This document shows positions 1 through 13,953 of a DNA stretch of 32,000 bases, piece after piece. The notes under the pieces are model-generated. The model ran no database searches. It was not told the DNA's origin and saw only the letters and a list, made by a program, of their open reading frames with translations. This DNA is from Dickeya solani IPO 2222 (GTDB taxonomy: Bacteria > Pseudomonadota > Gammaproteobacteria > Enterobacterales > Enterobacteriaceae): contig NZ_CP015137.1 of the NCBI RefSeq assembly GCF_001644705.1, positions 1 to 32,000 on the forward strand, written 5' to 3'. A program made the translations under genes and the position numbers. The first letter of the stretch is position 1; each line of letters opens with the position of its first letter.

Positions 1-144
1 CGCCAGCCGGCTGGCTGAAATGCAACGGTCAGGCGTTCGACAAAAACGCCTTCCCTAAACTGGCGCTGGCGTACCCCGGCGGCGTCCTGCCGGATCTGCG
101 TGGTGAGTTTATTCGTGGCTGGGATGATGGGCGCGGGGTGGATG
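1..144. repeat. Left arm of a long inverted repeat (partner 4566..4709); probably continues upstream of the window
   Basis: Direct comparison: 1-115 is identical to the reverse complement of 4595-4709. There are 3 mismatches out to about 144, after which the sequences diverge. Confidence 0.9.
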
Positions 145-386
145 CGGGGCGTGCTCTGAGTTCCGTGCAAACGGATGAACTCCGGTCTCACAAACACCGT
201 TTCATTAATGAATATGGCACACCGACAGAACGGATCATTGCATTTAGCGATGAGAATAATGAAAAGATTGAGGTCACGCTCTCATCGGGAGCACGTGCGC
301 ATACATACATTTTTATGGAGAACACAGGGGGAGTTGAAACCCGTCCGCGCAATATCGCCTTTAGCTACATCGTGAGGGCTGCCTGA
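1..386 (+). CDS. Phage tail fibre protein, 3' end (5' part lies upstream of the window): tail-collar domain plus variable tip, cassette 1, apparently in the expressed orientation
   Basis: Frame 3 is open from the window edge to the TGA at 384-386. The translation PAGWLKCNGQAFDKNAFPKLALAYPGGVLPDLRGEFIRGWDDGRGVD is a phage tail-collar signature. It is followed by a unique tip of about 65 aa and the terminal TRPRNIAFSYIVRAA shared with the other two cassettes. Confidence 0.85.
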   Translation, partial: PAGWLKCNGQAFDKNAFPKLALAYPGGVLPDLRGEFIRGWDDGRGVDAGRALSSVQTDELRSHKHRFINEYGTPTERIIAFSDENNEKIEVTLSSGARAHTYIFMENTGGVETRPRNIAFSYIVRAA

Positions 387-468
387 GGACTGGAGAACTT
401 ATCTGTTTTATCGATGCCCGGCGCCGGCAGCCTCTTGGATGAGTCCGGAATAAACCGGTAAACCACCG

Positions 469-495
469 CGCGGTGAGGGGACTCACCGCGTTTTT
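469..495 (+). terminator. Rho-independent terminator after tip cassette 1
   Basis: 9-bp stem cgcggtgag / ctcaccgcg with loop ggga, followed by TTTTT (491-495). Confidence 0.8.
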
Positions 496-571
496 ACGCT
501 GTGGCCGACAAGGTGCTATTCCACCGTACTCCCGTTATAGTAGACAGGTGGTTTGGATAAGCGCGAGTGAC

Positions 572-1141
572 ATGATGAATCCTGATGAAAAAACGCTGTT
601 CCTGGATGCTATGGACGATGTCAAACCGCTAAAGCCGTCCGCTACCGTCGTTCATCTTAAACCCGTTTCGGCGAAAACCGTCCTTCCCCACATTGCGGAA
701 ACAGCGCCGGATAACTTTCTTATCACCGGCTTTCTCGATCTGTTTTCATGCGAGGTCCCGCTGGAGTTCAGGCGAGAAGGTATCCAGCAAGGCGTTGTGG
801 ATAAACTGCGGCAGGGAAAGTATCCGCTGGATGGCAGCCTCAACCTGCTGCGTCAGCCGGTTGAGACCTGTCGGCAGAATCTGTTGGCGTTCATGTTGCA
901 GGCACAGCAGGATAACTTGCGTAATCTACTGATTATTCATGGCAAAGGTCGTCATGAAAAATCACACGCCAATGTCATACGCAATTACCTGTTTCGCTGG
1001 CTGCAGCAGTTTGACGCCGTGCAAGCCTTTTGTACTGCGCAACCGTTTCATGGCGGTACCGGCGCCTGTTATGTGTCGCTTAAAAAATCCGACCAGGCCC
1101 GTCAGGATAACCGCGAGAGACACGCTAAACGCAGCCGTTGA
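572..1141 (+). CDS. smrA: Smr-domain DNA endonuclease SmrA (YdaL family)
   Basis: From MMNPDEKTLFLDAMDDVKPLK the protein is collinear with E. coli SmrA, including LIIHGKGRHEKSHANVIRNY and the C-terminal ERHAKRSR. The ORF-track start at 473 overlaps the upstream terminator and is rejected. Confidence 0.85.
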   Translation: MMNPDEKTLFLDAMDDVKPLKPSATVVHLKPVSAKTVLPHIAETAPDNFLITGFLDLFSCEVPLEFRREGIQQGVVDKLRQGKYPLDGSLNLLRQPVETCRQNLLAFMLQAQQDNLRNLLIIHGKGRHEKSHANVIRNYLFRWLQQFDAVQAFCTAQPFHGGTGACYVSLKKSDQARQDNRERHAKRSR

Positions 1142-1162
1142 TCTTTTGTTCAAGCCAAAGAA

Positions 1163-1184
1163 AACGCCCGGATAACCGGGCGTT
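1163..1184 (-). terminator. Hairpin between convergent smrA and the MFS gene; functions best on the minus strand
   Basis: Stem aacgcccgg / ccgggcgtt with loop ataa. On the minus strand it is followed by TTTTCTTTGG; on the plus strand the tail is poor. Confidence 0.6.
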
Positions 1185-1205
1185 GGTGTATGGGCGTCGG
1201 CATAT

Positions 1206-2552
1206 TTAGTAACTGAGTCCTGCAACGGCGGGCCGGCTATAGCCGAATTGTCCTTTGGCAAGAATCATCAGCGACGTCAACAGTGCAGGAATAGCCAGAA
1301 TAGTAAACATGGTGGTCAGCCCCCATCCCATATTAACCACCTGCGCGCCGGCGAACGCGCTCATGATGGCGCCCATTCGGCCAACGCCATGCATCCAGCC
1401 TGAGCCGGTGGCGCGAGCTTCTGTCGGATAGTAACGGGCGGAAAGCGCATTCATGCCGGTGTTGGCGCCGTTGAGGCAAAATCCGCTGCTGAACGCGACT
1501 ACCGCCAGCATCACGAAGTAGGCGTGGGTGAGGCCAATCATCGCGGTAGCTACGCCGCCGGCGGCGTAAATCATGCCAAGCGCCAGATGCGGGTTAACGC
1601 GGTCCATCAGCCAGCCGGCAAACAGCGAACCGAACGTGCCGCCGGCCTGATACAGGGCGGTAATAATAGTGGCCTCGGTCACGCTCATGCCGGCTTCCTT
1701 GATGACGGTCGGCAGCCAACTGCCCAACAGATACACCATAAACAAACCGAAGAAATAGCCACCCCACAACATGACGCTGCCAAAACGGTAAGAGCGGGAC
1801 AGCACCAGTTGAACGGCAAATGCAGGCGTTTTTTCTGCCACGGGCATAGCGAACTGACTGTCGGCCTGACTGATGCCGGGAGCGATTTTATCCACGATGT
1901 GATGAATCTGATGCGAATCCGCCCGCTTGCTGACCAGGAACCGCACCGACTCCGGCAGCTTCATCAGCAGGAACGGCACCAGCAGCAGTGGCAAAATGCC
2001 GCCCATCAGCAACACGGAATGCCAGCCCCACTGCGGAATCATCCAGGAGGCGGCAAATCCGCCGCTGGCGGCGCCGAAGCTGAAGCCGCAGAAGACCACG
2101 GTAATGATGAAGGAGCGTTTTTTCTCCGGCGCAAACTCCGATACCAGCGTACCGACGTTCGGCATCGCCGCCCCCAGGCCTAAGCCGGTCAGAAAGCGGA
2201 AAATCACCATGTGTTGTGAGGTTTGGGAGAACGCCGTCAATAAGGTCCACAAGCCGAACAAAAATACGCTGGCGATAATGATCGTTTTACGGCCTCGCCA
2301 ATCCGCCAGCGGCCCGGAAATCATCGCCCCGACGGCCAGCCCGATCAGCGCTGCGCTGATAACCACGGCCAGTTCTGCGTTGCCGATTCCCCAGGCTGCT
2401 TTCAACGATGGCGCGATAAAGCCCATGATGGCGATGTCCATGCCATCAAGCGCAATAATACAAAAGCAAAGAAAAACAATCAGTTTCTGGTAAGCGCCAA
2501 GAGGACGCTGATTAATCAGCTGGCGTACGTCAATCGCGGTGGAACCTGTCAC
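1206..2552 (-). CDS. MFS transporter, aromatic acid:H+ symporter type (PcaK/MhpT-like)
   Basis: A 12-TM-like hydrophobic pattern with MFS motifs (GPLADWRGRK, FLTGLGLGAAMPN). Start set at the GTG at 2552, which lies 6 nt after GGAGA; the longer ORF-track start has no RBS. Confidence 0.8.
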   Translation of the reverse strand: MTGSTAIDVRQLINQRPLGAYQKLIVFLCFCIIALDGMDIAIMGFIAPSLKAAWGIGNAELAVVISAALIGLAVGAMISGPLADWRGRKTIIIASVFLFGLWTLLTAFSQTSQHMVIFRFLTGLGLGAAMPNVGTLVSEFAPEKKRSFIITVVFCGFSFGAASGGFAASWMIPQWGWHSVLLMGGILPLLLVPFLLMKLPESVRFLVSKRADSHQIHHIVDKIAPGISQADSQFAMPVAEKTPAFAVQLVLSRSYRFGSVMLWGGYFFGLFMVYLLGSWLPTVIKEAGMSVTEATIITALYQAGGTFGSLFAGWLMDRVNPHLALGMIYAAGGVATAMIGLTHAYFVMLAVVAFSSGFCLNGANTGMNALSARYYPTEARATGSGWMHGVGRMGAIMSAFAGAQVVNMGWGLTTMFTILAIPALLTSLMILAKGQFGYSRPAVAGLSY

Positions 2553-2660
2553 GCTGTTTCTCCAACAATACCGCAAAAATGTTCACAATGGCTTACACTG
2601 TAAACAATTATTTCCGATAGGGAAATATAATGGCGGGAAAAAATTTTAAGGGCCGGAGAA

Positions 2661-2693
2661 ATAAAAGCGGCGCACCGTAAATGGATGCGCCGC
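2661..2693 (-). terminator. Rho-independent terminator after the phytase-like gene
   Basis: On the minus strand: gcggcgca ... tgcgccgc stem (8 bp, 11-nt loop) followed by TTTTAT. Confidence 0.7.
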
Positions 2694-2715
2694 CGAATAA
2701 TCAATGCAGAATGGG

Positions 2716-4071
2716 CTAGTAGAGCGGCTGGGGAAGGTGGATGATCCACAACTGGCTGGCGGCGTCATCGTTTGACAGCGGTTCCAGTTCCAGACGGGTA
2801 TCGACCGCTTTTCCATCCAGCAGCAGCGCGCCATCAGCGCCTACCTGATATTTCCCGATCTTCTTTACACCCTTGACAGGGTTGACCAGTACGGACTGTA
2901 CGCCAAAATCGTTGTCGTTGGTGACCGCCAGCGTACGGGCATCGATTAGCGCTAACCCTTCTGCCTTCTCAGGCCTCCAGCCCAACTGGCGCAAATCGAC
3001 CAGTTGCTGCTTTTTCGCCAGCACGACACCGCGTTTCGCCAGCGTTTTAGCATCATTCCACTCTGCCGGCTGTTTCGCATCCAACGCGCTCAGATCGCTG
3101 GCCTGGCTCAGGTCAACACGGTAAATCAGGTTACGCATCACCTTGTTTTTATCCGCTCCTTGCTCAATCACCAGCACTTCATGGTCGTTGAGCGCCACCA
3201 TGTCGCCAATTTTGGCGTCACCGTTTTTTTGCCACTGATCCGCATCCAGCGGATAGCCGTACATGGCAGTTTTGCCCGTTGCCGGATCAAAGCTGACCAG
3301 GCGAGTCAATAACGCCTTGTTTTTGGTTTTCCCCTCGATATCCAGCGTGCTTTGCACCGCAGCCAGAATGCGGCCGTCAGGCATGCGGGTGATGCCTTCA
3401 AAGCCCCGGTTAGGCTGGCGCCATTTAAGAATATTGGGTAAACCACTGGCTACGCCTTGTTCGCCGCTTAGTGGCGTCGGGCCGACTTTCTTCAGGATTT
3501 TTCCTTGCGCATCCACCTGAATCAGGAACGGACCGTATTCATCCGATAGCCAAAATCCCCCCTGACCATCCGGCGTAATACCTTCGGTATCCAGCCCACG
3601 GCGGTCATCCGTTAATTTTTGCAATCCATCGTTGAGCGCCACTTCATTGGTGGTGCCGACTAGCGAACCGGGTAACGGCAAGCCACTGATAGGGCCGGCT
3701 TCATCATGCAATTTGCGCAGCGCCGTAGCTTGCGCGCTTTTAGCATTAACGGTAATGGTCATGATGGAGGGGGTAAAATCAGGTGCGGCAAAGATTTTCG
3801 CGTCTTTGCCCTGATATTCCGGCGCATCGGCATTCGGGCCGCGATCGGTAACGGTAACAAACGTCAGCTTGTCGCCATCCCGCCCGATAAATGACAATCC
3901 GGAACCGACCCCCATGGGAAAACCGTTGGGAAAACGCGTCTGCCACTTACCGCGGTAACTGACCCGATCATTATCAGGAAAGGTAATCTGGTACTGCTCG
4001 GTTTGAATCTCTGCCGCCTGAACCACCTGGGCCAGCAGGAGCATAGGGAGAAATGATAAACGAAGACGCAT
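2716..4071 (-). CDS. Secreted phytase-like protein ('esterase-like activity of phytase' family)
   Basis: Signal peptide MRLRLSFLPMLLLAQVVQA/AE. Beta-propeller-like repeats with DTEGI, SDEYGP and NRGFEGI motifs recalled from the phytase-like family. Family assignment is from memory, not from a search. Confidence 0.55.
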   Translation of the reverse strand: MRLRLSFLPMLLLAQVVQAAEIQTEQYQITFPDNDRVSYRGKWQTRFPNGFPMGVGSGLSFIGRDGDKLTFVTVTDRGPNADAPEYQGKDAKIFAAPDFTPSIMTITVNAKSAQATALRKLHDEAGPISGLPLPGSLVGTTNEVALNDGLQKLTDDRRGLDTEGITPDGQGGFWLSDEYGPFLIQVDAQGKILKKVGPTPLSGEQGVASGLPNILKWRQPNRGFEGITRMPDGRILAAVQSTLDIEGKTKNKALLTRLVSFDPATGKTAMYGYPLDADQWQKNGDAKIGDMVALNDHEVLVIEQGADKNKVMRNLIYRVDLSQASDLSALDAKQPAEWNDAKTLAKRGVVLAKKQQLVDLRQLGWRPEKAEGLALIDARTLAVTNDNDFGVQSVLVNPVKGVKKIGKYQVGADGALLLDGKAVDTRLELEPLSNDDAASQLWIIHLPQPLY

Positions 4072-4163
4072 GGTCGAACCCCGTAAAAGAAATCAGCGAC
4101 ATCACACTAAAACTGTAATACGACGCGTTTATGACAGTACAGTACGGCAACGATACATATTGT

Positions 4164-4190
4164 AAAAACGCGGTAAGTCCCTTCACCGCG
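4164..4190 (-). terminator. Rho-independent terminator after tip cassette 2
   Basis: On the minus strand: cgcggtgaag-gga-cttaccgcg (one bulge) followed by TTTTT. It is homologous to the terminator at 469-495. Confidence 0.7.
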
Positions 4191-4278
4191 CTGTAGCTTA
4201 CCGGTTAGATTCCGGATTTATCCGACTATGAGGCCGTCGGCGCCGTGGCGATATCGTAAGGCTCGGTTTCACCCGATA

Positions 4279-4809
4279 TCAGGCGGCCCTCACGATGTAG
4301 CTAAAGGCGATATTGCGGGGGCGGGTAGCACCATACCCAAACTGCCAACCATTTGAATCCAAATCTTGTGCACCCGACGCCTCCACATTTATAGAGGAGC
4401 GTAGCATGCCATAATCGCCTTTATTAACAACATCAAACCCCATGGATTTGTATGTATTGGCACTATCGTTGTTTGCATGTATCAACGCTCCCACATTTAC
4501 TGAAGCTAAGTTAGGATCTGAAATAGTCAGAGTTCCTTTTTGCCAACTTAGCAATTCACGGGCAACATCCACCCCACGCCCATCATCCCATCCGCGAATA
4601 AACTCACCACGCAGATCCGGCAGGACGCCGCCGGGGTACGCCAGCGCCAGTTTAGGGAAGGCGTTTTTGTCGAACGCCTGACCGTTGCATTTCAGCCAGC
4701 CGGCTGGCGGCGTCGCCTGCGGCCAGGGCAGCGGTATGCCCGCCAGGTCGGTGGTTTTCAGCACGTCGCTTAAACCCAGGTTTGCGAGAAAACCAGAGGA
4801 TAAATACAA
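4279..4809 (-). CDS. Alternative tail-fibre C-terminal cassette 2 (tail-collar domain plus different tip); promoterless and silent in this orientation
   Basis: Encodes ...GIPLPWPQATPPAGWLKCNGQAFDKNAFPKLALAYPGGVLPDLRGEFIRGWDDGRGVD, then a unique tip of about 80 aa, then TRPRNIAFSYIVRAA. An in-frame TGA lies immediately upstream, and there is only a TTG 'start' with no RBS. Confidence 0.8.
   Translation of the reverse strand: MYLSSGFLANLGLSDVLKTTDLAGIPLPWPQATPPAGWLKCNGQAFDKNAFPKLALAYPGGVLPDLRGEFIRGWDDGRGVDVARELLSWQKGTLTISDPNLASVNVGALIHANNDSANTYKSMGFDVVNKGDYGMLRSSINVEASGAQDLDSNGWQFGYGATRPRNIAFSYIVRAA
4566..4709. repeat. Right arm of the long inverted repeat (partner 1..144)
   Basis: The reverse complement of 4595-4709 is identical to 1-115. 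Confidence 0.9.
4765..4790. other. Candidate 26-bp crossover site for a Din-family (hix/gix/cix-like) invertase
   Basis: The minus strand reads TTCTCGCAAACC-TG-GGTTTAAGCGAC. This has the 12-2-12 architecture with the AAACC-NN-GGTTT core of hix/gix/cix sites. It lies at the 5' edge of cassette 2 and 44 bp upstream of the invertase ATG. Confidence 0.65.
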
Positions 4810-4833
4810 TCAGCCTTTTCAGGAGGTTAGGTT

Positions 4834-5430
4834 ATGCTTATTGGCTATGCCCGGGTATCCACCAGCGATCAAAATACCGAATTGCAAAAAAACGCGCTGG
4901 TCGGCGCAAATTGTGAACTGATTTTTGAAGATCACGCCAGCGGCAAAAACGCCAGACGGCCGGGGTTGAAACGGGCCTTGCGCAAGCTCAAACGCGGCGA
5001 CACCCTGATCGTCTGGAAACTCGATCGGCTGGGCCGCAGCGTACGGGACCTGATTACCATGGTGTCGGACCTGCAAGCGCACGGCATTCACTTTCGCAGC
5101 CTGACCGATGCGATTGATACGACAACGCCAGCCGGCCGCTTCTTTTTCCACGTGATGAGTGCGCTGGCCGAAATGGAGCGAGAACTGATCGTCGAACGAA
5201 CCCGCGCCGGACTGGCGGCCGCCCGGGCGGCGGGTCGCATCGGCGGTCGTCGGCGCATCATGACGCCAGACGCCATCGAACACGCCAAAACGCTGCTGAC
5301 CAATGGTGCAACCCGCTGGCAAATCGCCAATATTATCGGCGTGTCGGAAAAAACCATTTATAAATATTTTCCCGTCACACAAAAAACAGTTGTTAGTGAA
5401 TTATTATCATATGGAAAATATGAAGGATGA
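4834..5430 (+). CDS. Site-specific DNA invertase, serine recombinase of the Hin/Gin/Cin/Pin family
   Basis: MLIGYARVSTSDQNTELQKNAL...GDTLIVWKLDRLGRS...FRSLTDAIDTTTPAGRFFFHVMSALAEMERELIVERTRAGLAAARAAGRIGGR is collinear with Gin/Hin. There is a C-terminal HTH and a strong RBS (AGGAGG) upstream. Confidence 0.92.
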   Translation: MLIGYARVSTSDQNTELQKNALVGANCELIFEDHASGKNARRPGLKRALRKLKRGDTLIVWKLDRLGRSVRDLITMVSDLQAHGIHFRSLTDAIDTTTPAGRFFFHVMSALAEMERELIVERTRAGLAAARAAGRIGGRRRIMTPDAIEHAKTLLTNGATRWQIANIIGVSEKTIYKYFPVTQKTVVSELLSYGKYEG

Positions 5431-5572: not shown

Positions 5573-6151
5573 ATGGAAAAAAATAATTCCCCCTGTTCAC
5601 TTGACCTGATTCTGGGCAAGGAGAACCTGTATAAAAATAGTCCAATTAATATCGGCAGCATTTCGCTTGGATGCTGCAAGTGCCAGGATACCCCTGCGAC
5701 TACCCCCACCACAACCGATGGGTTGAAAGATTTGGTCGGGATTCCGCAACCCTGGCCGTTGGCAGAAGCACCGGAAGGCTGGCTGAAATGTAATGGCCAG
5801 ACATTTGATACCGCAAAATATCCGCAACTGGCAAAACTATATCCTGCCGGCACCTTGCCGGACCTGCGCGGCGAATTTATTCGTGGTTGGGATGATGGGC
5901 GTGGGGTAGATGCCAAACGAGAAATTGGTTCCGCTCAATTGGGAACACATATCACTGGTGATAACGGCTTATATCCTGCTGTACATGGTATAGGGAAAAT
6001 AGCAGAATGTTATGTAGATAGTCCCGATGCTACTCCTCGTTCATTATATTGGATTGCCGCACCGAATAATGAACTCCAAACAGGACCAACATTTTGGGGT
6101 GCCACTCGCCCACGCAATATCGCCTTCAGTTATATCGTCAAGGCAGGCTAA
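5573..6151 (+). CDS. Tail-collar domain tail-fibre tip protein, cassette 3; has its own ATG and a fixed orientation
   Basis: GIPQPWPLAEAPEGWLKCNGQTFDTAKYPQLAKLYPAGTLPDLRGEFIRGWDDGRGVD, then a unique tip, then TRPRNIAFSYIVKAG. It is AT-rich, a stop codon lies at 5549-5551 just upstream, and it abuts the chaperone gene. Confidence 0.75.
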   Translation: MEKNNSPCSLDLILGKENLYKNSPINIGSISLGCCKCQDTPATTPTTTDGLKDLVGIPQPWPLAEAPEGWLKCNGQTFDTAKYPQLAKLYPAGTLPDLRGEFIRGWDDGRGVDAKREIGSAQLGTHITGDNGLYPAVHGIGKIAECYVDSPDATPRSLYWIAAPNNELQTGPTFWGATRPRNIAFSYIVKAG

Positions 6152-6153
6152 TC

Positions 6154-6765
6154 ATGACCACACAAAATGAAACCATGATTCAGCTGAATGAACAGGGGCT
6201 GAGTATCAGCAGTGGATATATTCAGGTCTACCATATTGAACCGCAAACGCGGGAATATATCGGCAGCACCCGGGAATATTTGATGGAAGGCGTGGGTATT
6301 CCGGCACACAGTTTCATCGATACGCCGCCGCCCCTTCAAGCCGGCCAGACTGTCGTACGCAGTCAGGACAGTTTAACCTGGGAAAGCATTGCTGATTATC
6401 GCGGGCAGACCGCCTACGAGAAACAAACACGGCAACCCAACCCAATCACCCAGCCCGGCGACCTGCCCGAAACCCTGACGCTGTTGCCGCCGGCCACCGA
6501 CTACGATGTCTGGCAAAACGACGGCTGGGTGACCGATGCCAAAGCGCAGCAGACCGCACAAGCCAGCGCGGCGCAACAGCAGATGGCTGGTTATCTCGCC
6601 CAGGCGGAAAAACGCCTTGCCGTGCTGCAGTACGCGGTGGAACTGGAGATGGCGACGGAACAGGAAACCCAGGCGCTGAAGAACTGGAAAACCTATATGG
6701 TGCAGTTAAGCCGGGTGGACGTGTCGTCTGCGCCCGCTATCGACTGGCCGACCATGCCCGCCTGA
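6154..6765 (+). CDS. G: Tail fibre assembly chaperone (P2 gpG / Tfa family)
   Basis: The C-terminal LQYAVELEMATEQETQALKNWKTYMVQLSRVDVSSAPAIDWPTMP is the characteristic Tfa motif. The ATG at 6154 lies just after the cassette 3 stop (TAATCATG). Confidence 0.88.
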   Translation: MTTQNETMIQLNEQGLSISSGYIQVYHIEPQTREYIGSTREYLMEGVGIPAHSFIDTPPPLQAGQTVVRSQDSLTWESIADYRGQTAYEKQTRQPNPITQPGDLPETLTLLPPATDYDVWQNDGWVTDAKAQQTAQASAAQQQMAGYLAQAEKRLAVLQYAVELEMATEQETQALKNWKTYMVQLSRVDVSSAPAIDWPTMPA

Positions 6766-9044: not shown

Positions 9045-9196
9045 CGCTGCCGCCGAGCCTCACGGTTGACGACCTGATGGCGGATATCGCCGTGGTGTTC
9101 CACTGGCCGCCATCCACACTTTTCCCCATGAGCCTGGCAGAGTTGATTAACTGGCGTGCCAAGGCGCTACAACGAAGTGGACAAGACTATGCCTAA
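8754..9196 (+). CDS. E': gpE+E' frameshift-extended tail chaperone (-1 shift at 9017-9023)
   Basis: The -1 frame after the slip reads FFIAGLGTLTLPPSLTVDDLMADIAVVFHWPPSTLFPMSLAELINWRAKALQRSGQDYA*. The FHWP...SLxELxxW pattern is typical of the P2 E' extension. Its stop overlaps the next gene's start. Confidence 0.75.
9017..9023 (+). other. Programmed -1 frameshift slippery heptamer T_TTT_TTA
   Basis: An X_XXY_YYZ heptamer in the gpE frame (ggT TTT TTA) lies 7 codons before the E stop. The -1 frame stays open to 9196. Confidence 0.75.
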
Positions 9197-10283
9197 GCAA
9201 TCAACCACCCCGAATGACGGGTCGACGACAACAGGCGCCAGTGGACGAAGCAAAAGCGCCGGGGATAGCAGCATCTTCTCGCCGCTGGGGGATAATGTTT
9301 ATCTGAATAAAATCAGCAGCGTACTACAGGATTTTTTAAACAAAGCCGGTCAAATCACGCACAGTGGCGCGTTCAACGCCACCGGCTCGCCGAAAAAAAA
9401 CGCGACGGGCGGAAAAAAAGGCGGCAGACATTCTGCCGCGGCGCAGCTGGGAACACTGGGGAATCTCGCCAGACGATTCGACGCGCTGACCGCTATCCTG
9501 ACACCGGCCTCTTCCGCCCTGAAAACCGCGCATGACCGTTCGCCGGCGGACAATGCGGCGCTCTCCCGTAACGGCCAGTCCTCCGACGCCGGCGCAGCGC
9601 CATCGCTCATCGCTCAGGCAAGCGACGGCGTCAACAGCATCTATTTGTCCGCGACGGCGGCCATGCAGGCGCAACAGCGCATCGCCGGGCTGGTTCCTTC
9701 AGCGCGATGGGCTTCCGGCATTACCGCGCCGTCGCTGCCGGGCAACGTGGCGTCATTACTGCAAGCGCAGCAGAGCATCAATCTGCCCGCGAATCTCCTG
9801 CCACAGGTTGGCGCTGGCGCGACGTCGCAAACCGGTGCCGAAGGGCTGGACACGCTCGCCGGAACCGCACAGGAATCGTTCGTCGGCGTGGAAGAAACCA
9901 GCCTGATGCTGTCCGCATTAAGCAATGCGGACCTGGATGACGGCGACGGCGGCAACGGTGCAACCGGAGGGATTGACACGCTGCAAGCCATTTCAAGCCC
10001 GGCCCTGCAACTGCTGAGTCAATCCGCCCTGGCCGTTCAAAGCAGCGCAGAAACCCCGTCAAACCCGTTGTCTGACATGATGAACGGTCATTACCGCGCC
10101 CTCTCCCCGGCATCACAGCAAAGTTATGTTGACCAGCGCGTGGTGAATAACATCACCATCAACGTGCCGGAGAACAGCAACCTCGACACGATTAAACAAT
10201 ACATTGAAGAGGCCCTGAGAAAATACACCCCGAATAGCAGCGCGTACTCCTATAACTCCATGACCTCTAATCTCATTTCATGA
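9189..10283 (+). CDS. Protein in the tape-measure (gpT) position; unusually short (364 aa) and low-complexity
   Basis: Assigned by position only, between E' and U. The ATG at 9189 overlaps the E' stop. The protein is rich in Ala, Ser, Gly and Gln, and I saw no recognisable P2 gpT N-terminal similarity. Confidence 0.5.
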   Translation: MPKQSTTPNDGSTTTGASGRSKSAGDSSIFSPLGDNVYLNKISSVLQDFLNKAGQITHSGAFNATGSPKKNATGGKKGGRHSAAAQLGTLGNLARRFDALTAILTPASSALKTAHDRSPADNAALSRNGQSSDAGAAPSLIAQASDGVNSIYLSATAAMQAQQRIAGLVPSARWASGITAPSLPGNVASLLQAQQSINLPANLLPQVGAGATSQTGAEGLDTLAGTAQESFVGVEETSLMLSALSNADLDDGDGGNGATGGIDTLQAISSPALQLLSQSALAVQSSAETPSNPLSDMMNGHYRALSPASQQSYVDQRVVNNITINVPENSNLDTIKQYIEEALRKYTPNSSAYSYNSMTSNLIS

Positions 10284-12642: not shown

Positions 12643-13953
12643 ATGATGGAAACCATCCAGGCTTACCGCGCCAGTCTGTTGCACTTTGTCGCCGACCCGC
12701 TGCATGACCCGCAGGCCACTCGCTTTATCGAAGACGGCCTGTTGCGGGTGCGCGATGGGCGTATTCAGGATGCCGTGCCGTATGACAGCCTCACTGAGGC
12801 CGAACGCCAGTCCATGACGGTGATCGACTATCGCGGCCGGCTGCTGATGCCGGGGTTTATCGACACCCATATCCATTTTCCGCAGACGGAAATGATCGCC
12901 AGTTACGGCGAGCAGTTGCTGTCCTGGCTCAATACTTACACCTTTCCCACCGAGCGTAAGTTCGCCGACGAGGATTACGCCCGGGAGCGGGCCGCGTTTT
13001 TCATTCAGGAACTGCTGCGGCACGGCACCACCAGCGCACTGGTGTTCGCCACCGTGCACCCGCAGTCGGTTGACGCGCTGTTCAGCGCCGCCGAAGCCAA
13101 AAACATGTGCCTCATCGCCGGCAAAGTGATGATGGACCGCCATGCGCCGGACTATCTGTGCGACACCGCGCAGCAAAGCTATGACGAGAGTAAAGCGCTG
13201 ATTGAAAAATGGCACCGGCGCGGGCGGTTGCGCTACGCGGTCACGCCGCGTTTTGCGCCCACCTCCACCCCGGCGCAGCTGGCGCTGGCGGGGCGACTGT
13301 TGCGGGAATACCCGGATGTGTATCTGCATACCCATCTGAGTGAAAACCCGGACGAAATCGCCTGGGTCAAATCGCTGTTTCCCGAACATCAACATTACCT
13401 TGATGTTTACCACCACCACGGTCTGACCGGACGCCGTTCGGTGTTTGCCCATGCCATCCATCTGCAGCCTGATGAAGTCCGCACGCTGGCGCAAAGCCAG
13501 TCCGCCGTGGCGTTTTGCCCCTGCTCCAATCTGTTTCTGGGCAGCGGCCTGTTTCGGCTGCATCCGCTAAAGGCCGCGGGGATTCGCATCGGAATCGGCA
13601 CCGACGTCGGCGCCGGCACCAGCCTGTCGCTGCTGCAAACCCTCAGCGACGGCTACAAAGTGCAGCAGTTGCAAGGAGAAAAACTCTCGGCACGCGAAGG
13701 GTTGTATCAGGCCACGCTGGGCAGCGCCGCCGCACTGTCGCTGGATGACCGGCTGGGTAACTTTCTGCCGGGCAAAGAAGCCGATTTCGTGGTGCTGGAC
13801 TGGGCCGCCACCCCACTGCAACAGTTGCGCCAGCAACAATCCACCTCGCTGGACGATCGGCTGTTCGCTCTGATGATGCAAGGTGACGACCGAAACATCA
13901 GCGCCACTTATGTGCATGGCGAATGCGTCTATACTCGTCATACGTCAAGTTGA
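12643..13953 (+). CDS. guaD: Guanine deaminase
   Basis: Collinear with E. coli GuaD (PGFIDTHIHFPQTEMIASYGEQLLSWLN, HTHLSENPDEIAWV, GTDVGAGTS). Start chosen at the ATG 8 nt after AGGGAG. Confidence 0.9.
   Translation: MMETIQAYRASLLHFVADPLHDPQATRFIEDGLLRVRDGRIQDAVPYDSLTEAERQSMTVIDYRGRLLMPGFIDTHIHFPQTEMIASYGEQLLSWLNTYTFPTERKFADEDYARERAAFFIQELLRHGTTSALVFATVHPQSVDALFSAAEAKNMCLIAGKVMMDRHAPDYLCDTAQQSYDESKALIEKWHRRGRLRYAVTPRFAPTSTPAQLALAGRLLREYPDVYLHTHLSENPDEIAWVKSLFPEHQHYLDVYHHHGLTGRRSVFAHAIHLQPDEVRTLAQSQSAVAFCPCSNLFLGSGLFRLHPLKAAGIRIGIGTDVGAGTSLSLLQTLSDGYKVQQLQGEKLSAREGLYQATLGSAAALSLDDRLGNFLPGKEADFVVLDWAATPLQQLRQQQSTSLDDRLFALMMQGDDRNISATYVHGECVYTRHTSS

What the first reader, a model, noticed from the sequence alone, without database searches (positions are those of the whole stretch)
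497..4163. About 3.7 kb of cellular-type genes (smrA, MFS transporter, secreted phytase-like protein) sit exactly between the two cassette terminators, inside the predicted invertible segment
The homology between the two cassettes continues past their stop codons through homologous terminators (469-495 and 4164-4190) and then stops. Everything between is unrelated to phage tails: smrA (+), an aromatic-acid-type MFS transporter (-) and a signal-peptide phytase-like protein (-). The two minus-strand genes each have their own terminator.

Classical invertible fibre segments carry only tips and chaperones. I know of no described case in which an invertase-flipped fibre segment carries metabolic, transport or nuclease passengers.

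One consequence follows. In the present orientation, read-through from the fibre gene enters smrA in sense. After inversion it would enter the phytase-like gene and the MFS gene in sense. Passenger expression could therefore be coupled to the fibre phase.

An alternative explanation is a rearrangement between two related prophages flanking chromosomal DNA.
Basis: partly seen in the sequence, partly recalled or inferred. Interest (0 to 1): 0.8.

Follow-up and report, generated by a model that had tools for sequence, protein, structure and literature searches.

The report
Tailocin fibre switch carrying three host genes
A DNA segment that flips to change the tail-fibre tip of a phage-tail-like bacterial weapon (tailocin) in Dickeya also carries three ordinary cellular genes, which look like old, self-contained passengers; the classical flipping mechanism is unchanged, and the same locus in a related strain is already listed in a published survey.

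Summary
Window 497-4163 holds smrA, an MFS transporter gene and a secreted phytase-like gene. They sit between two homologous terminators that follow two convergent tail-fibre tip cassettes.

The window matches Dickeya solani CP017453.1 at 100% and belongs to a P2-like tailocin cluster (dickeyocin P2D1 type). The whole 4.87-kb unit inverts. Another D. solani assembly carries window -82..4792 reversed at 100% identity, with colinear flanks.

The unit is bounded by two identical 26-bp Gin/Hin-type crossover sites. A Gin-like invertase gene (4834-5430) lies next to the right-hand site.

The same layout, with identical sites and seen in both orientations, occurs in four Dickeya species. D. aquatica has the sites but only the MFS gene and smrA between them.

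The passengers are under purifying selection (dN/dS 0.03-0.17). Each looks like a separate transcription unit, and terminator hairpins conserved across species bracket the block. I therefore read them as old cargo genes (morons) at the junction between the fibre and sheath genes. They were probably enclosed when the inverted tip and the invertase came to lie on their far side. Coupling of their expression to the fibre phase is unlikely.

The two-prophage alternative is refuted. Novelty is limited: Milman et al. 2023 list the D. dadantii homologue as a long-read-confirmed inversion and name the three genes.

The parts
1..386 (+). 3' part of tail-fibre gene H, currently fused to tip A. The gene starts at window -774 and encodes 386 aa. 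The left crossover site, TTCTCGCAAACCTGGGTTTAAGCGAC, lies at window -80..-55, outside the window.
   Evidence: Gene calls and Pfam Phage_tail_fib plus Collar on the identical contig L003. Coordinates mapped. Collar domain.
1..144 (.). Left arm of the inverted repeat. The full arm is window -82..144, 227 nt, with 3 mismatches to 4566-4792.
469..496 (+). Intrinsic terminator behind tip A: CGCGGTGAG-GGGA-CTCACCGCG followed by TTTTT.
   Evidence: Fold of -21.5 kcal/mol, z = -3.5. The stem is conserved and the loop varies in four Dickeya species.
572..1141 (+). smrA, DNA endonuclease SmrA orthologue (189 aa).
   Evidence: Pfam Smr. NCBIfam SmrA equivalog above its cut-off. 62% identical to E. coli SmrA. 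dN/dS 0.06-0.17.
1163..1184 (.). Hairpin between the convergent smrA and MFS genes. On the minus strand a T-rich tail follows it, so it is the terminator of the MFS gene.
1206..2552 (-). MFS transporter resembling the aromatic-acid/H+ symporter (PcaK-like) group, 448 aa, GTG start.
   Evidence: Pfam MFS_1 and Sugar_tr. NCBIfam PcaK and TIGR00895 are the best matches but fall below their cut-offs. Gene call. dN/dS 0.03-0.10.
2580..2606 (.). Imperfect palindrome TGTTTACAGTG-N5-CATTGTGAACA, 28 nt upstream of the MFS start. It lies in the best-conserved 100 nt of the whole segment and is a candidate operator.
   Evidence: 97% invariant columns over 2517-2616 in four species. Sequence, hairpin. Function not tested.
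2666..2694 (-). Intrinsic terminator of the phytase-like gene.
   Evidence: -20.6 kcal/mol, z = -4.7.
2716..4071 (-). Secreted phytase-like (PF13449) protein, 451 aa.
   Evidence: Pfam, 2.9e-46. Signal-like N-terminus. Homologues across Enterobacterales. dN/dS 0.08-0.11.
4164..4190 (-). Intrinsic terminator behind tip B, homologous to the one at 469-496.
   Evidence: (-16.0 kcal/mol).
4279..4764 (-). Silent fibre tip B. After inversion it is joined in frame to the constant part of H, giving a 401-aa fibre.
   Evidence: Collar domain. The 401-aa H gene is called in the flipped assembly L001.
4765..4790 (-). Right crossover site, TTCTCGCAAACC-TG-GGTTTAAGCGAC, at the outer end of the inverted repeat.
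   Evidence: One match in the window and none in shuffles. Identical at both ends in four Dickeya species and, apart from one base in one copy, in D. aquatica.
4834..5430 (+). Gin/Hin-type serine DNA invertase (198 aa, catalytic Ser9).
   Evidence: Pfam Resolvase plus HTH_7. Full-length match to Mu Gin structures 4m6f and 3uj3, E = 3e-69. dN/dS 0.06-0.14.
5573..6151 (+). Stand-alone collar-domain fibre-tip protein ('ColC', 192 aa), outside the switch.
   Evidence: Pfam Collar. About 47-48% identical to both tips from just after the point that corresponds to the crossover site. The D. dadantii gene that I infer to be its homologue, from locus-tag order, was found in purified particles (PMC10719855).
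6154..6765 (+). The only tail-fibre assembly chaperone gene in the fibre region. None lies inside the segment.
   Evidence: Pfam Caudo_TAP. Gene calls.

Best explanation
This is a classical Gin/Cin/Pin-type fibre switch inside the domesticated P2-like tailocin cluster (dickeyocin P2D1 type) of Dickeya solani.

The invertase (4834-5430) recombines two identical 26-bp sites, at window -80..-55 and at 4765-4790. This turns over a 4,871-bp segment and replaces the last ~150-165 codons of fibre gene H: tip A gives a 386-aa fibre and tip B a 401-aa fibre. That step is shown by genome comparison and by published long reads.

The segment contains no chaperone genes. One chaperone gene outside it probably serves all tips, which share the C-terminal motif RPRNIAFSYIV (inferred).

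smrA, the MFS gene and the phytase-like gene are carried along passively. They are old host-derived cargo genes (morons) at the junction between the fibre and sheath genes. They became enclosed because the alternative inverted tip and the invertase lie on their far side (inferred from relatives).

Each passenger looks like a separate transcription unit, and the block is shielded from the fibre operon by a terminator behind each tip. Inversion therefore changes their direction but probably not their expression (inferred).
For: **The segment flips.** The window is 100% identical to CP017453.1. Assembly GCA_013339815.1 has window -82..4792 inverted at 100% identity, with flanks colinear at 99.9%. 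Of the 24 contigs read that carry the identical phytase-like protein, 17 group with the flipped locus L001 and 5 with the window-type locus L003.

**Site-specific mechanism.** The sites sit exactly at the outer ends of the inverted repeat, and the right-hand one is 44 nt from the invertase start. The same 26-bp sites are found in D. fangzhongdai, D. chrysanthemi, D. parazeae and D. aquatica. The repeat beyond the site shrinks from 225 nt to 25 nt across these species. The invertase resembles Gin at E = 3e-69, has Ser9, and shows dN/dS 0.06-0.14. H is read in frame in both states, 386 and 401 aa. Long reads show both variants coexisting in D. dadantii S3-1 (PMC9881135 Table 3).

**Passengers are old and functional.** dN/dS is 0.03-0.17 with synonymous sites near saturation, and divergence rises from D. 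fangzhongdai through D. chrysanthemi and D. parazeae to Musicola.

**Relatives keep the passengers in the same interval without a switch.**
- Musicola: I, phytase-like, MFS, smrA, collar protein, chaperone, sheath.
- Brenneria uluponensis: three fibre genes (two followed by full-length chaperone genes, the third by a chaperone fragment), then phytase-like, smrA, sheath.
- Lonsdalea: only the MFS gene and smrA between the phage repressor and ogr.

**Insulation.** Terminator hairpins lie behind both tips in four species, with conserved stems and variable loops. The phytase-like and MFS genes have their own terminators, and upstream sequences are conserved.
Against: - No transcription data were examined, so leaky read-through during tailocin induction is not excluded. 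The right-hand terminator is weaker (-16 kcal/mol, with a bulge), and the T runs are short in D. chrysanthemi and D. parazeae on the smrA side.
- The crossover point can only be placed within the first ~196 nt of the repeat in D. solani, because the three mismatches lie at the inner end.
- Retention of the passengers through several independent decays of the cluster (Lonsdalea, Musicola, Brenneria) could mean that they matter to the cluster rather than being bystanders.
- The order of events (passengers first, switch second) is inferred from a few genomes. The opposite history fits some data equally well: an ancestral switch lost in several lineages. Supporting that are a 20-nt relic of a cassette end in Musicola and a hix-like site in Brenneria H3.
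Confidence: 0.8

Rival explanations
1. Phase-coupled cargo. Late transcription of the fibre operon leaks through the tip terminator. One orientation then co-expresses smrA with tip A, and the other co-expresses the phytase-like and MFS genes with tip B.
For: The geometry is right. In the window state H reads towards smrA in sense. In the flipped state H reads towards the phytase-like and MFS genes in sense. The arrangement has been kept across the genus. The right-hand terminator is weaker.
Against: Terminator hairpins behind both tips are conserved across four species. The phytase-like gene has its own strong terminator before the MFS gene, so read-through would have to cross two terminators to reach the MFS gene. 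Relatives without any switch keep the same genes. From general knowledge of tailocins, cells that express the late operon normally lyse, so coupling would act mainly in doomed cells (inference).
Confidence: 0.1
2. The passengers have a job in tailocin biology, for example changing a surface receptor for self-protection, helping release, or scavenging after lysis. They sit in the fibre region for that reason.
For: The association with this cluster is long-lived and under strong purifying selection. The MFS gene and smrA survive in Lonsdalea, and the phytase-like gene and smrA in Brenneria, at the same chromosomal locus. The phytase-like protein appears to be secreted.
Against: The three products are functionally unrelated and separately transcribed. 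Homologues of each occur in ordinary chromosomal settings without phage genes: Pectobacterium, Brenneria rubrifaciens, Serratia, Erwinia and E. coli. In Lonsdalea they persist after all tail genes have gone, which points to a function independent of the tailocin. None was reported among the particle proteins (PMC10719855).
Confidence: 0.08
3. The inversion is general homologous recombination between the 150-225-nt inverted repeats, and the invertase is a relic.
For: The repeats are long and nearly identical in D. solani: 227 nt with 3 mismatches. The crossover cannot be placed more precisely than the outer ~196 nt.
Against: The invertase is intact, Gin-like and under purifying selection. The repeat ends exactly at a conserved 26-bp hix/gix-type site. 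In D. aquatica the repeat is the bare site, 25 bp, too short for efficient RecA exchange.
Confidence: 0.04
4. Two related prophages, or an assembly artefact, flank a piece of chromosome. The left cassette then belongs to a different element.
For: smrA and a related MFS gene are chromosomal near-neighbours in Erwinia, so the block does look cellular.
Against: There is one P2-like tail module with each gene present once: X, R, V, W, J, I, H, segment, invertase, collar protein, chaperone, sheath through D, then ogr. The left cassette is the 3' end of that module's own H gene. The same layout is found in complete genomes of four species.
Confidence: 0.01

Closest known systems
Phage Mu G segment with Gin (also P1 C segment with Cin, and e14 P segment with Pin)
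   Same: A serine invertase of the same family: full-length match to Gin structures, E = 3e-69. Two inverted 26-bp sites, one inside the fibre gene at the constant/variable junction and one next to the invertase gene. Inversion swaps the fibre C-terminus.
   Different: From established knowledge, the Mu and P1 segments hold only the two tips and their two chaperone genes. Here the segment has no chaperone gene, and instead has three cellular-type genes occupying 3.7 of its 4.87 kb. The single chaperone gene, and a third stand-alone tip-like gene, lie beyond the invertase. The host element is a capsid-less tailocin cluster rather than a phage.
D. dadantii S3-1 locus CP076386.1:93499-94659 in Milman et al. 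2023 (NAR 51:553, PMC9881135, Table 3)
   Same: [quoted passage not shown] It is among the 22 loci for which the paper reports long-read evidence that variants coexist in one sample. The listed fibre CDS is 1,161 nt, the same length as H with tip A here.
   Different: That paper gives it one table row. It does not discuss the passengers, the tailocin identity, the crossover sites, the terminators or the distribution across the genus.
Carotovoricin Er fibre inversion by Ein in Pectobacterium (Nguyen et al. 2001, as cited in PMC13195805)
   Same: A tailocin of a soft-rot bacterium whose killing range is switched by invertase-driven inversion of the fibre locus.
   Different: It is a different tailocin lineage: Borowicz et al. 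2025 found that no strain has both types. No cellular cargo in the inverted region is mentioned in the passages I read.
P2 cargo (moron) site between the fibre genes H-G and sheath gene FI (the Z/fun position)
   Same: In Brenneria uluponensis the passengers occupy exactly the interval between the fibre genes and the sheath gene, and in Musicola and Dickeya the same general region of the same cluster. The MFS and phytase-like genes have terminators of their own, and conserved sequence lies upstream of each passenger. That P2-like phages pick up foreign genes at this position is established knowledge, not tested here.
   Different: In Dickeya the cargo lies inside the invertible unit. Its base composition matches the host and the tail genes rather than standing out.
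Erwinia phage ENT90 (a P2-like phage with an invertase)
   Same: The nearest phage match to the invertase gene, 73% DNA identity. Its invertase sits directly upstream of the sheath gene, next to an inverted tip gene and a chaperone gene.
   Different: It is compact, with no cellular genes, and the invertase is followed directly by the sheath gene. No site similar to the Dickeya one was found at up to 6 mismatches.

Membership tests
Gin/Hin/Cin/Pin-type invertible fibre switch | A small serine recombinase with an N-terminal catalytic serine and a C-terminal helix-turn-helix, closely related to Gin or Hin. | tested here: met
   Pfam Resolvase plus HTH_7. Residues 1-183 match Gin structures 4m6f and 3uj3 at E = 3e-69, and Ser9 is aligned.
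Gin/Hin/Cin/Pin-type invertible fibre switch | Two 26-bp imperfectly palindromic crossover sites in inverted orientation that bound the segment, one of them next to the invertase gene. | tested here: met
   TTCTCGCAAACC-TG-GGTTTAAGCGAC at window -80..-55 and at 4765-4790. Conserved in five Dickeya species. The resemblance to hix, gix and cix is judged from memory of those sequences.
Gin/Hin/Cin/Pin-type invertible fibre switch | The segment is found in both orientations, and each gives an intact fibre reading frame. | tested here: met
   L001 against L003, an exact 4,875-bp inversion. H is 401 aa or 386 aa. Within-sample coexistence is published for the D. dadantii homologue.
Gin/Hin/Cin/Pin-type invertible fibre switch | A Fis-dependent recombinational enhancer in cis, usually in the 5' part of the invertase gene. 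| not tested
   The Fis consensus is too weak for a meaningful scan, and I had no verified enhancer sequence to align against.
Gin/Hin/Cin/Pin-type invertible fibre switch | The segment content is limited to fibre tips and their chaperones. This is typical of the family rather than strictly defining. | tested here: not met
   There is no chaperone gene in the segment, and 3.7 kb of it is smrA, the MFS gene and the phytase-like gene.
P2-like tailocin (dickeyocin P2D1 type) | A P2-type tail and baseplate gene set without capsid genes, at the Dickeya tailocin locus. | tested here: met
   L001 reads GPA, X, R, V, W, J, I, H ... sheath, tube, E, T, U, D, with no capsid genes between GPA and X. The gene order matches the D. 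dadantii 3937 cluster described in PMC10719855 and PMC11974492.
P2-like tailocin (dickeyocin P2D1 type) | Production of bactericidal tail-like particles. | not testable with these tools
   Reported for D. solani A623-S20-A17 and D. dadantii 3937 in PMC11974492 and PMC10719855, not for this strain.
Phage cargo gene ('moron') | An autonomous transcription unit, with its own promoter and terminator, set between phage operons. | tested here: inconclusive
   Terminators are clear for the MFS and phytase-like genes, and insulating terminators lie on both sides of the block. Upstream sequences are conserved. The sigma-70 consensus scan found no convincing promoter for any of the three genes, and overall it was at chance level: 8 matches against 6.5 expected.
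Phage cargo gene ('moron') | Base composition distinct from the surrounding phage genes. | tested here: not met
   The tetranucleotide profile of 497-4163 correlates at 0.87-0.88 with both the tail genes and the chromosomal flank. The outliers are the fibre tips, the invertase and the collar protein gene.
SmrA DNA endonuclease | A score above the curated cut-off of the NCBIfam equivalog NF033154. | tested here: met
   232.7 bits against a cut-off of 180. 62% identical to E. coli SmrA.
PcaK / aromatic-acid:H+ symporter (AAHS) transporters | A score above the curated cut-off of NF053517 (PcaK) or TIGR00895 (AAHS subfamily). | tested here: not met
   473 bits against 770, and 392.6 bits against 418.55. 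These are the best matches, so the protein resembles this group, but the substrate is unknown.

The most novel reading that the evidence does not exclude
The three genes are not bystanders. Being inside the switch ties their expression, through terminator read-through or a change in local topology, to which fibre tip is made. A subpopulation armed with tip A would then differ physiologically from one armed with tip B: a DNA nuclease in one state, a secreted esterase plus a transporter in the other. That could provide matching self-protection or post-lysis scavenging. It would be a phase-variable link between a weapon's target range and host metabolism.
Probability: 0.07. Interest if true: 0.75.

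Novelty: new variant of a known kind. Interest (0 to 1): 0.38.

Why it matters
It shows that the Dickeya P2D1-type tailocin, now under study as a competition weapon and a possible biocontrol agent, has a built-in two-state fibre switch. The tailocin papers I searched contain no mention of inversion, an invertase or a recombinase, so killing-range assays on single cultures may be averaging two particle types.

It also explains a published oddity, that the transporter and phytase genes differ in orientation between strains. And it gives a clean natural example of host genes kept for a long time inside an invertible phage-derived segment.

The mechanism is classical, and the locus type has already been catalogued once, so the gain is in annotation and evolutionary history rather than in concept.

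Tried and rejected
1. **Scan of genome contigs with the phytase-like protein.** It returned no Dickeya at all; the nearest hit was Wohlfahrtiimonas at 54%. For a moment this suggested a species-specific foreign gene. The protein database then showed homologues in Dickeya, Musicola and many other Enterobacterales. The scan result reflects that collection, not biology.
2. **Ogr-type late-promoter element TGT-N12-ACA.** There were 5 matches against 5.15 expected and none upstream of the collar-protein or sheath genes. The one upstream of the MFS gene is too close to the start codon for a -55 activator site. No conclusion was drawn.
3. **Sigma-70 consensus scan.** It was at chance level and did not identify passenger promoters. 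It also missed the two cassette terminators, which I confirmed by folding instead.
4. **Base composition as a marker of foreign origin.** The passengers are not distinct from the host or the tail genes.
5. **Phage database search with the 6.8-kb region.** Only the invertase (ENT90, 73%) and a ~60-nt collar motif matched. No phage carries the passenger block.
6. **Synteny of all three passengers outside the cluster.** The trio was not found together. Only smrA and a related MFS gene are near-neighbours, in Erwinia. Phytase-like homologues in Pectobacterium and Brenneria rubrifaciens, and an MFS homologue in Serratia, sit in unrelated contexts.
7. **Two-prophage or artefact explanation.** Rejected.
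8. **Orthology of the flanking GGDEF protein with E. coli DgcM, the neighbour of smrA in K-12.** Only the GGDEF domain aligns, at 32%. Not established.

Full report
**1. What is in the window**

Positions 1-386 (+) are the end of a collar-domain fibre gene. Then come, in order:
- smrA (572-1141, +);
- an MFS transporter gene (1206-2552, -);
- a phytase-like gene with a signal-like N-terminus (2716-4071, -);
- a second collar-domain cassette on the opposite strand (4279-4809, -);
- a serine recombinase gene (4834-5430, +);
- a stand-alone 192-aa collar protein gene (5573-6151, +);
- a fibre assembly chaperone gene (6154-6765, +);
- sheath, tube and the remaining P2-type tail genes up to gpD (to 11964).

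An amidohydrolase gene, a GAF-PAS-GGDEF gene and a chemoreceptor gene follow.

The homology between the two cassettes runs past their stop codons: 339-497 matches 4162-4326 at 79%. It ends in a pair of matching hairpins, 453-497 and 4162-4206, 89% complementary. Both hairpins fold as GC-rich stems followed by a U run, at -21.5 and -16.0 kcal/mol.

**2. Where it comes from**

The window is 100% identical to CP017453.1 over the 13 kb compared. That is a 4.92-Mb genome whose proteins are named Dickeya solani in the protein database.

The identical contig supplies what the window lacks. Fibre gene H starts at window -774, has the P2 gpH-type N-terminal domain, and follows baseplate genes V, W, J and I. 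Upstream, the replication gene GPA is followed directly by tail genes X and R, with no capsid genes.

This is the P2-like tailocin cluster described as dickeyocin P2D1 in D. dadantii 3937. Similar clusters are reported across Dickeya and Musicola (PMC10719855, PMC11974492).

**3. The whole unit flips**

The inverted repeat is 227 nt with three mismatches: window -82..144 against 4566-4792. Its outer 26 bp, TTCTCGCAAACC-TG-GGTTTAAGCGAC, has the form of a hix/gix/cix crossover site. The site occurs once in the window and never in shuffled sequence. The right-hand copy ends 44 nt before the invertase start.

A second D. solani assembly (GCA_013339815.1) carries window -82..4792 in the opposite orientation at 100% identity. 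Both flanks stay colinear at 99.9%. The fibre gene is intact in both states, 386 aa with tip A and 401 aa with tip B. Of the 24 contigs read that carry the identical phytase-like protein, 17 group with the flipped locus and 5 with the window-type locus.

The invertase aligns over its whole length with the Mu Gin crystal structures (E = 3e-69), with Ser9 in place.

**4. The arrangement is conserved across the genus**

D. fangzhongdai, D. chrysanthemi Ech1591 and D. parazeae Ech586 have the same order: H, tip, smrA/MFS/phytase-like, tip, invertase, collar protein, chaperone, sheath. Two are in the window orientation and one is flipped. The same 26-bp site lies at both ends in each.

D. aquatica has the sites, the invertase, the MFS gene and smrA, but no phytase-like gene. 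Its repeat is only the 25-bp site. Across species the repeat shrinks through 225, 208, 150, 157 and 25 nt, so the crossover site is the only shared part. This favours site-specific recombination over general recombination.

In the four-species alignment, the middle parts of the tips are hypervariable (5-40% invariant columns). The passengers are conserved (mostly 60-97%). A tip-B-like cassette lies next to the phytase-like gene in D. solani and D. chrysanthemi, but next to smrA in D. parazeae. Tips are therefore exchanged independently of the cargo.

**5. Are the passengers functional, and how are they transcribed?**

dN/dS is 0.03-0.17 for all three genes against four Dickeya species, Musicola and Lonsdalea, with synonymous sites near saturation. 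They are maintained genes.

The phytase-like gene ends in a strong terminator (2694-2666, -20.6 kcal/mol). The MFS gene has its own terminator (1184-1163) and a highly conserved upstream region (2517-2616, 97% invariant) containing a palindrome. Sequences upstream of smrA and of the phytase-like gene are also conserved.

The hairpins behind both tips are present in all four species. The stems are kept, with one G-U change, while the loops differ. The block therefore looks insulated from the fibre operon on both sides. This is why I rate phase-coupled expression as unlikely, although no expression data were examined.

**6. Origin of the passengers**

Relatives at the same chromosomal locus keep the passengers without a switch:
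- Musicola paradisiaca has I, phytase-like, MFS, smrA, collar protein, chaperone, sheath. It has no H, tips, invertase or sites. A 20-nt relic of a cassette 3' end lies upstream of its phytase-like gene.
- Brenneria uluponensis has three tandem fibre genes (two followed by full-length chaperone genes, the third by a chaperone fragment), then phytase-like, smrA and sheath. A hix-like site sits at the constant/variable junction of the third fibre gene.
- Lonsdalea quercina keeps only the phage repressor, a small gene, smrA, the MFS gene and ogr.

Outside these clusters:
- smrA and a related MFS gene are near-neighbours in a phage-free setting in Erwinia: uspE, fnr, smrA, LysR, MFS.
- E. coli has abgR, smrA, dgcM.
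- Phytase-like or MFS homologues in Pectobacterium, Brenneria rubrifaciens and Serratia sit in unrelated contexts.

Base composition does not set the passengers apart from the host or the tail genes. The outliers are the tips, the invertase and the collar protein gene.

The simplest reading is that host-derived genes settled long ago in the interval between the fibre and sheath genes, the classical cargo site of P2-like phages. In Dickeya they lie between the two crossover sites because the alternative tip and the invertase are on their far side. I could not decide whether the switch was built around them or they entered an existing switch.

**7. What is already known**

Milman et al. 2023 (PMC9881135, Table 3) list CP076386.1:93499-94659, which is D. 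dadantii subsp. dieffenbachiae S3-1 (PMC8444975). It is among 22 loci where long reads show inversion variants coexisting in one sample. They describe it as a prophage with SmrA, MFS and phytase genes.

Borowicz et al. 2025 (PMC11974492) noted that the orientation of the transporter and phytase genes differs between Dickeya tailocin clusters. The word stems 'invert' and 'recombinase' did not occur in the P2D1 papers I searched. No paper in the library combined dickeyocin or P2D1 with inversion terms.

The link to the tailocin, the sites, the terminators and the history across the genus appear to be undescribed.

**8. Verdict**

The feature is real and is a working Gin-type fibre switch. Its content is unusual: three conserved cellular genes and no internal chaperone gene. 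Most likely it is passive cargo. The two-prophage alternative is refuted.

Interest is moderate to low. The mechanism is classical and the locus type has been catalogued. It does matter for interpreting dickeyocin host-range experiments, and it is a tidy example of cargo trapped in an invertible segment.

Noticed in passing
window 5573-6151 (and L029 14006-14557): A stand-alone 192-aa collar-domain protein with its own ATG lies just after the invertase, with the chaperone gene starting 3 nt after its stop. Its similarity to tips A and B begins immediately after the point that corresponds to the crossover site. It therefore looks like a third tip frozen outside the switch, and it lacks the baseplate-binding N-terminal domain of H. 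It has the lowest GC3 in the region (0.415). By locus-tag order I infer that its D. dadantii homologue (RS12100) is the 'putative side tail fiber protein' that PMC10719855 found in purified particles. In Musicola it is the only fibre-like gene left. How it attaches to the particle is unclear.
   Followed up: partly
window 2517-2616: This is the best-conserved 100 nt of the whole invertible segment (97% invariant columns in four species), just upstream of and into the MFS gene. It contains the imperfect palindrome TGTTTACAGTG-N5-CATTGTGAACA, which may be an operator for an unknown regulator.
   Followed up: partly
window 9156-10283: The gene at the tape-measure position encodes only ~364-375 aa in D. 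solani, D. fangzhongdai and D. parazeae and has no Pfam match. It encodes 737-794 aa in Musicola, D. aquatica and Brenneria uluponensis. The P2D1 paper says the cluster lacks a tape-measure protein. How tail length is set in these species is unexplained.
   Followed up: no
window 4782-4810: A promoter-like match (TTGCGA, 17 nt, TACAAT) has its -35 element inside the right crossover site and reads towards the invertase gene. Because both sites are identical, the -35 element would be the same in both orientations. From memory, this resembles the overlap of promoter and crossover site described for cin.
   Followed up: no
L036, L035 and L003 (tip cassettes): A tip-B-like cassette (88-90% aa identity) sits next to the phytase-like gene in D. 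solani and D. chrysanthemi, but next to smrA in D. parazeae. The partner tips are only 52-58% identical to tips A and B. Tips are evidently exchanged between species and between the two slots, independently of the cargo.
   Followed up: partly
L045 (Brenneria uluponensis CP135917.1), about 13085-13110: A hix-like sequence, TTGTCAAAAACCTTGGTTTAGGAGAT, sits at the constant/variable junction of the third of three tandem fibre genes. The cluster has no invertase and no partner site. It could be a relic of a lost switch, or a target for an invertase encoded elsewhere.
   Followed up: no
L038-L040 (Lonsdalea quercina): At the same chromosomal locus (amidohydrolase and GGDEF genes on one side, rsmF and proQ on the other), only the P2-type repressor, a 73-aa gene, smrA, the MFS gene and ogr remain. 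All tail genes are gone, but the two passengers are intact and under purifying selection.
   Followed up: partly
L002 (CP024710.1): This D. solani assembly matches the window with six 1-nt gaps that break the sheath, gpD, invertase and collar protein genes. GPA genes appear at both ends of the locus. This fits the duplication of the cluster reported for strain IFB0223 in PMC6127512. The indels may be sequencing errors.
   Followed up: no
L044 (Erwinia sp. P6884) and L046 (E. coli K-12 1,404,741-1,407,795): smrA lies in a conserved chromosomal neighbourhood in other enterobacteria: uspE, fnr, smrA, LysR, MFS in Erwinia, and abgR, mcaS, smrA, dgcM in E. coli. The 120 best SmrA matches shown for Dickeya and Musicola were all of the cluster type (71-94% identical to the window copy). 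The SmrA orthologue of these genera may therefore reside only inside the tailocin cluster.
   Followed up: partly
Genome-contig collection: The scan with the phytase-like protein returned no Dickeya, Musicola or other enterobacterial locus, although the protein database holds many at 60-99% identity. Negative results from that collection should not be read as absence.
   Followed up: yes
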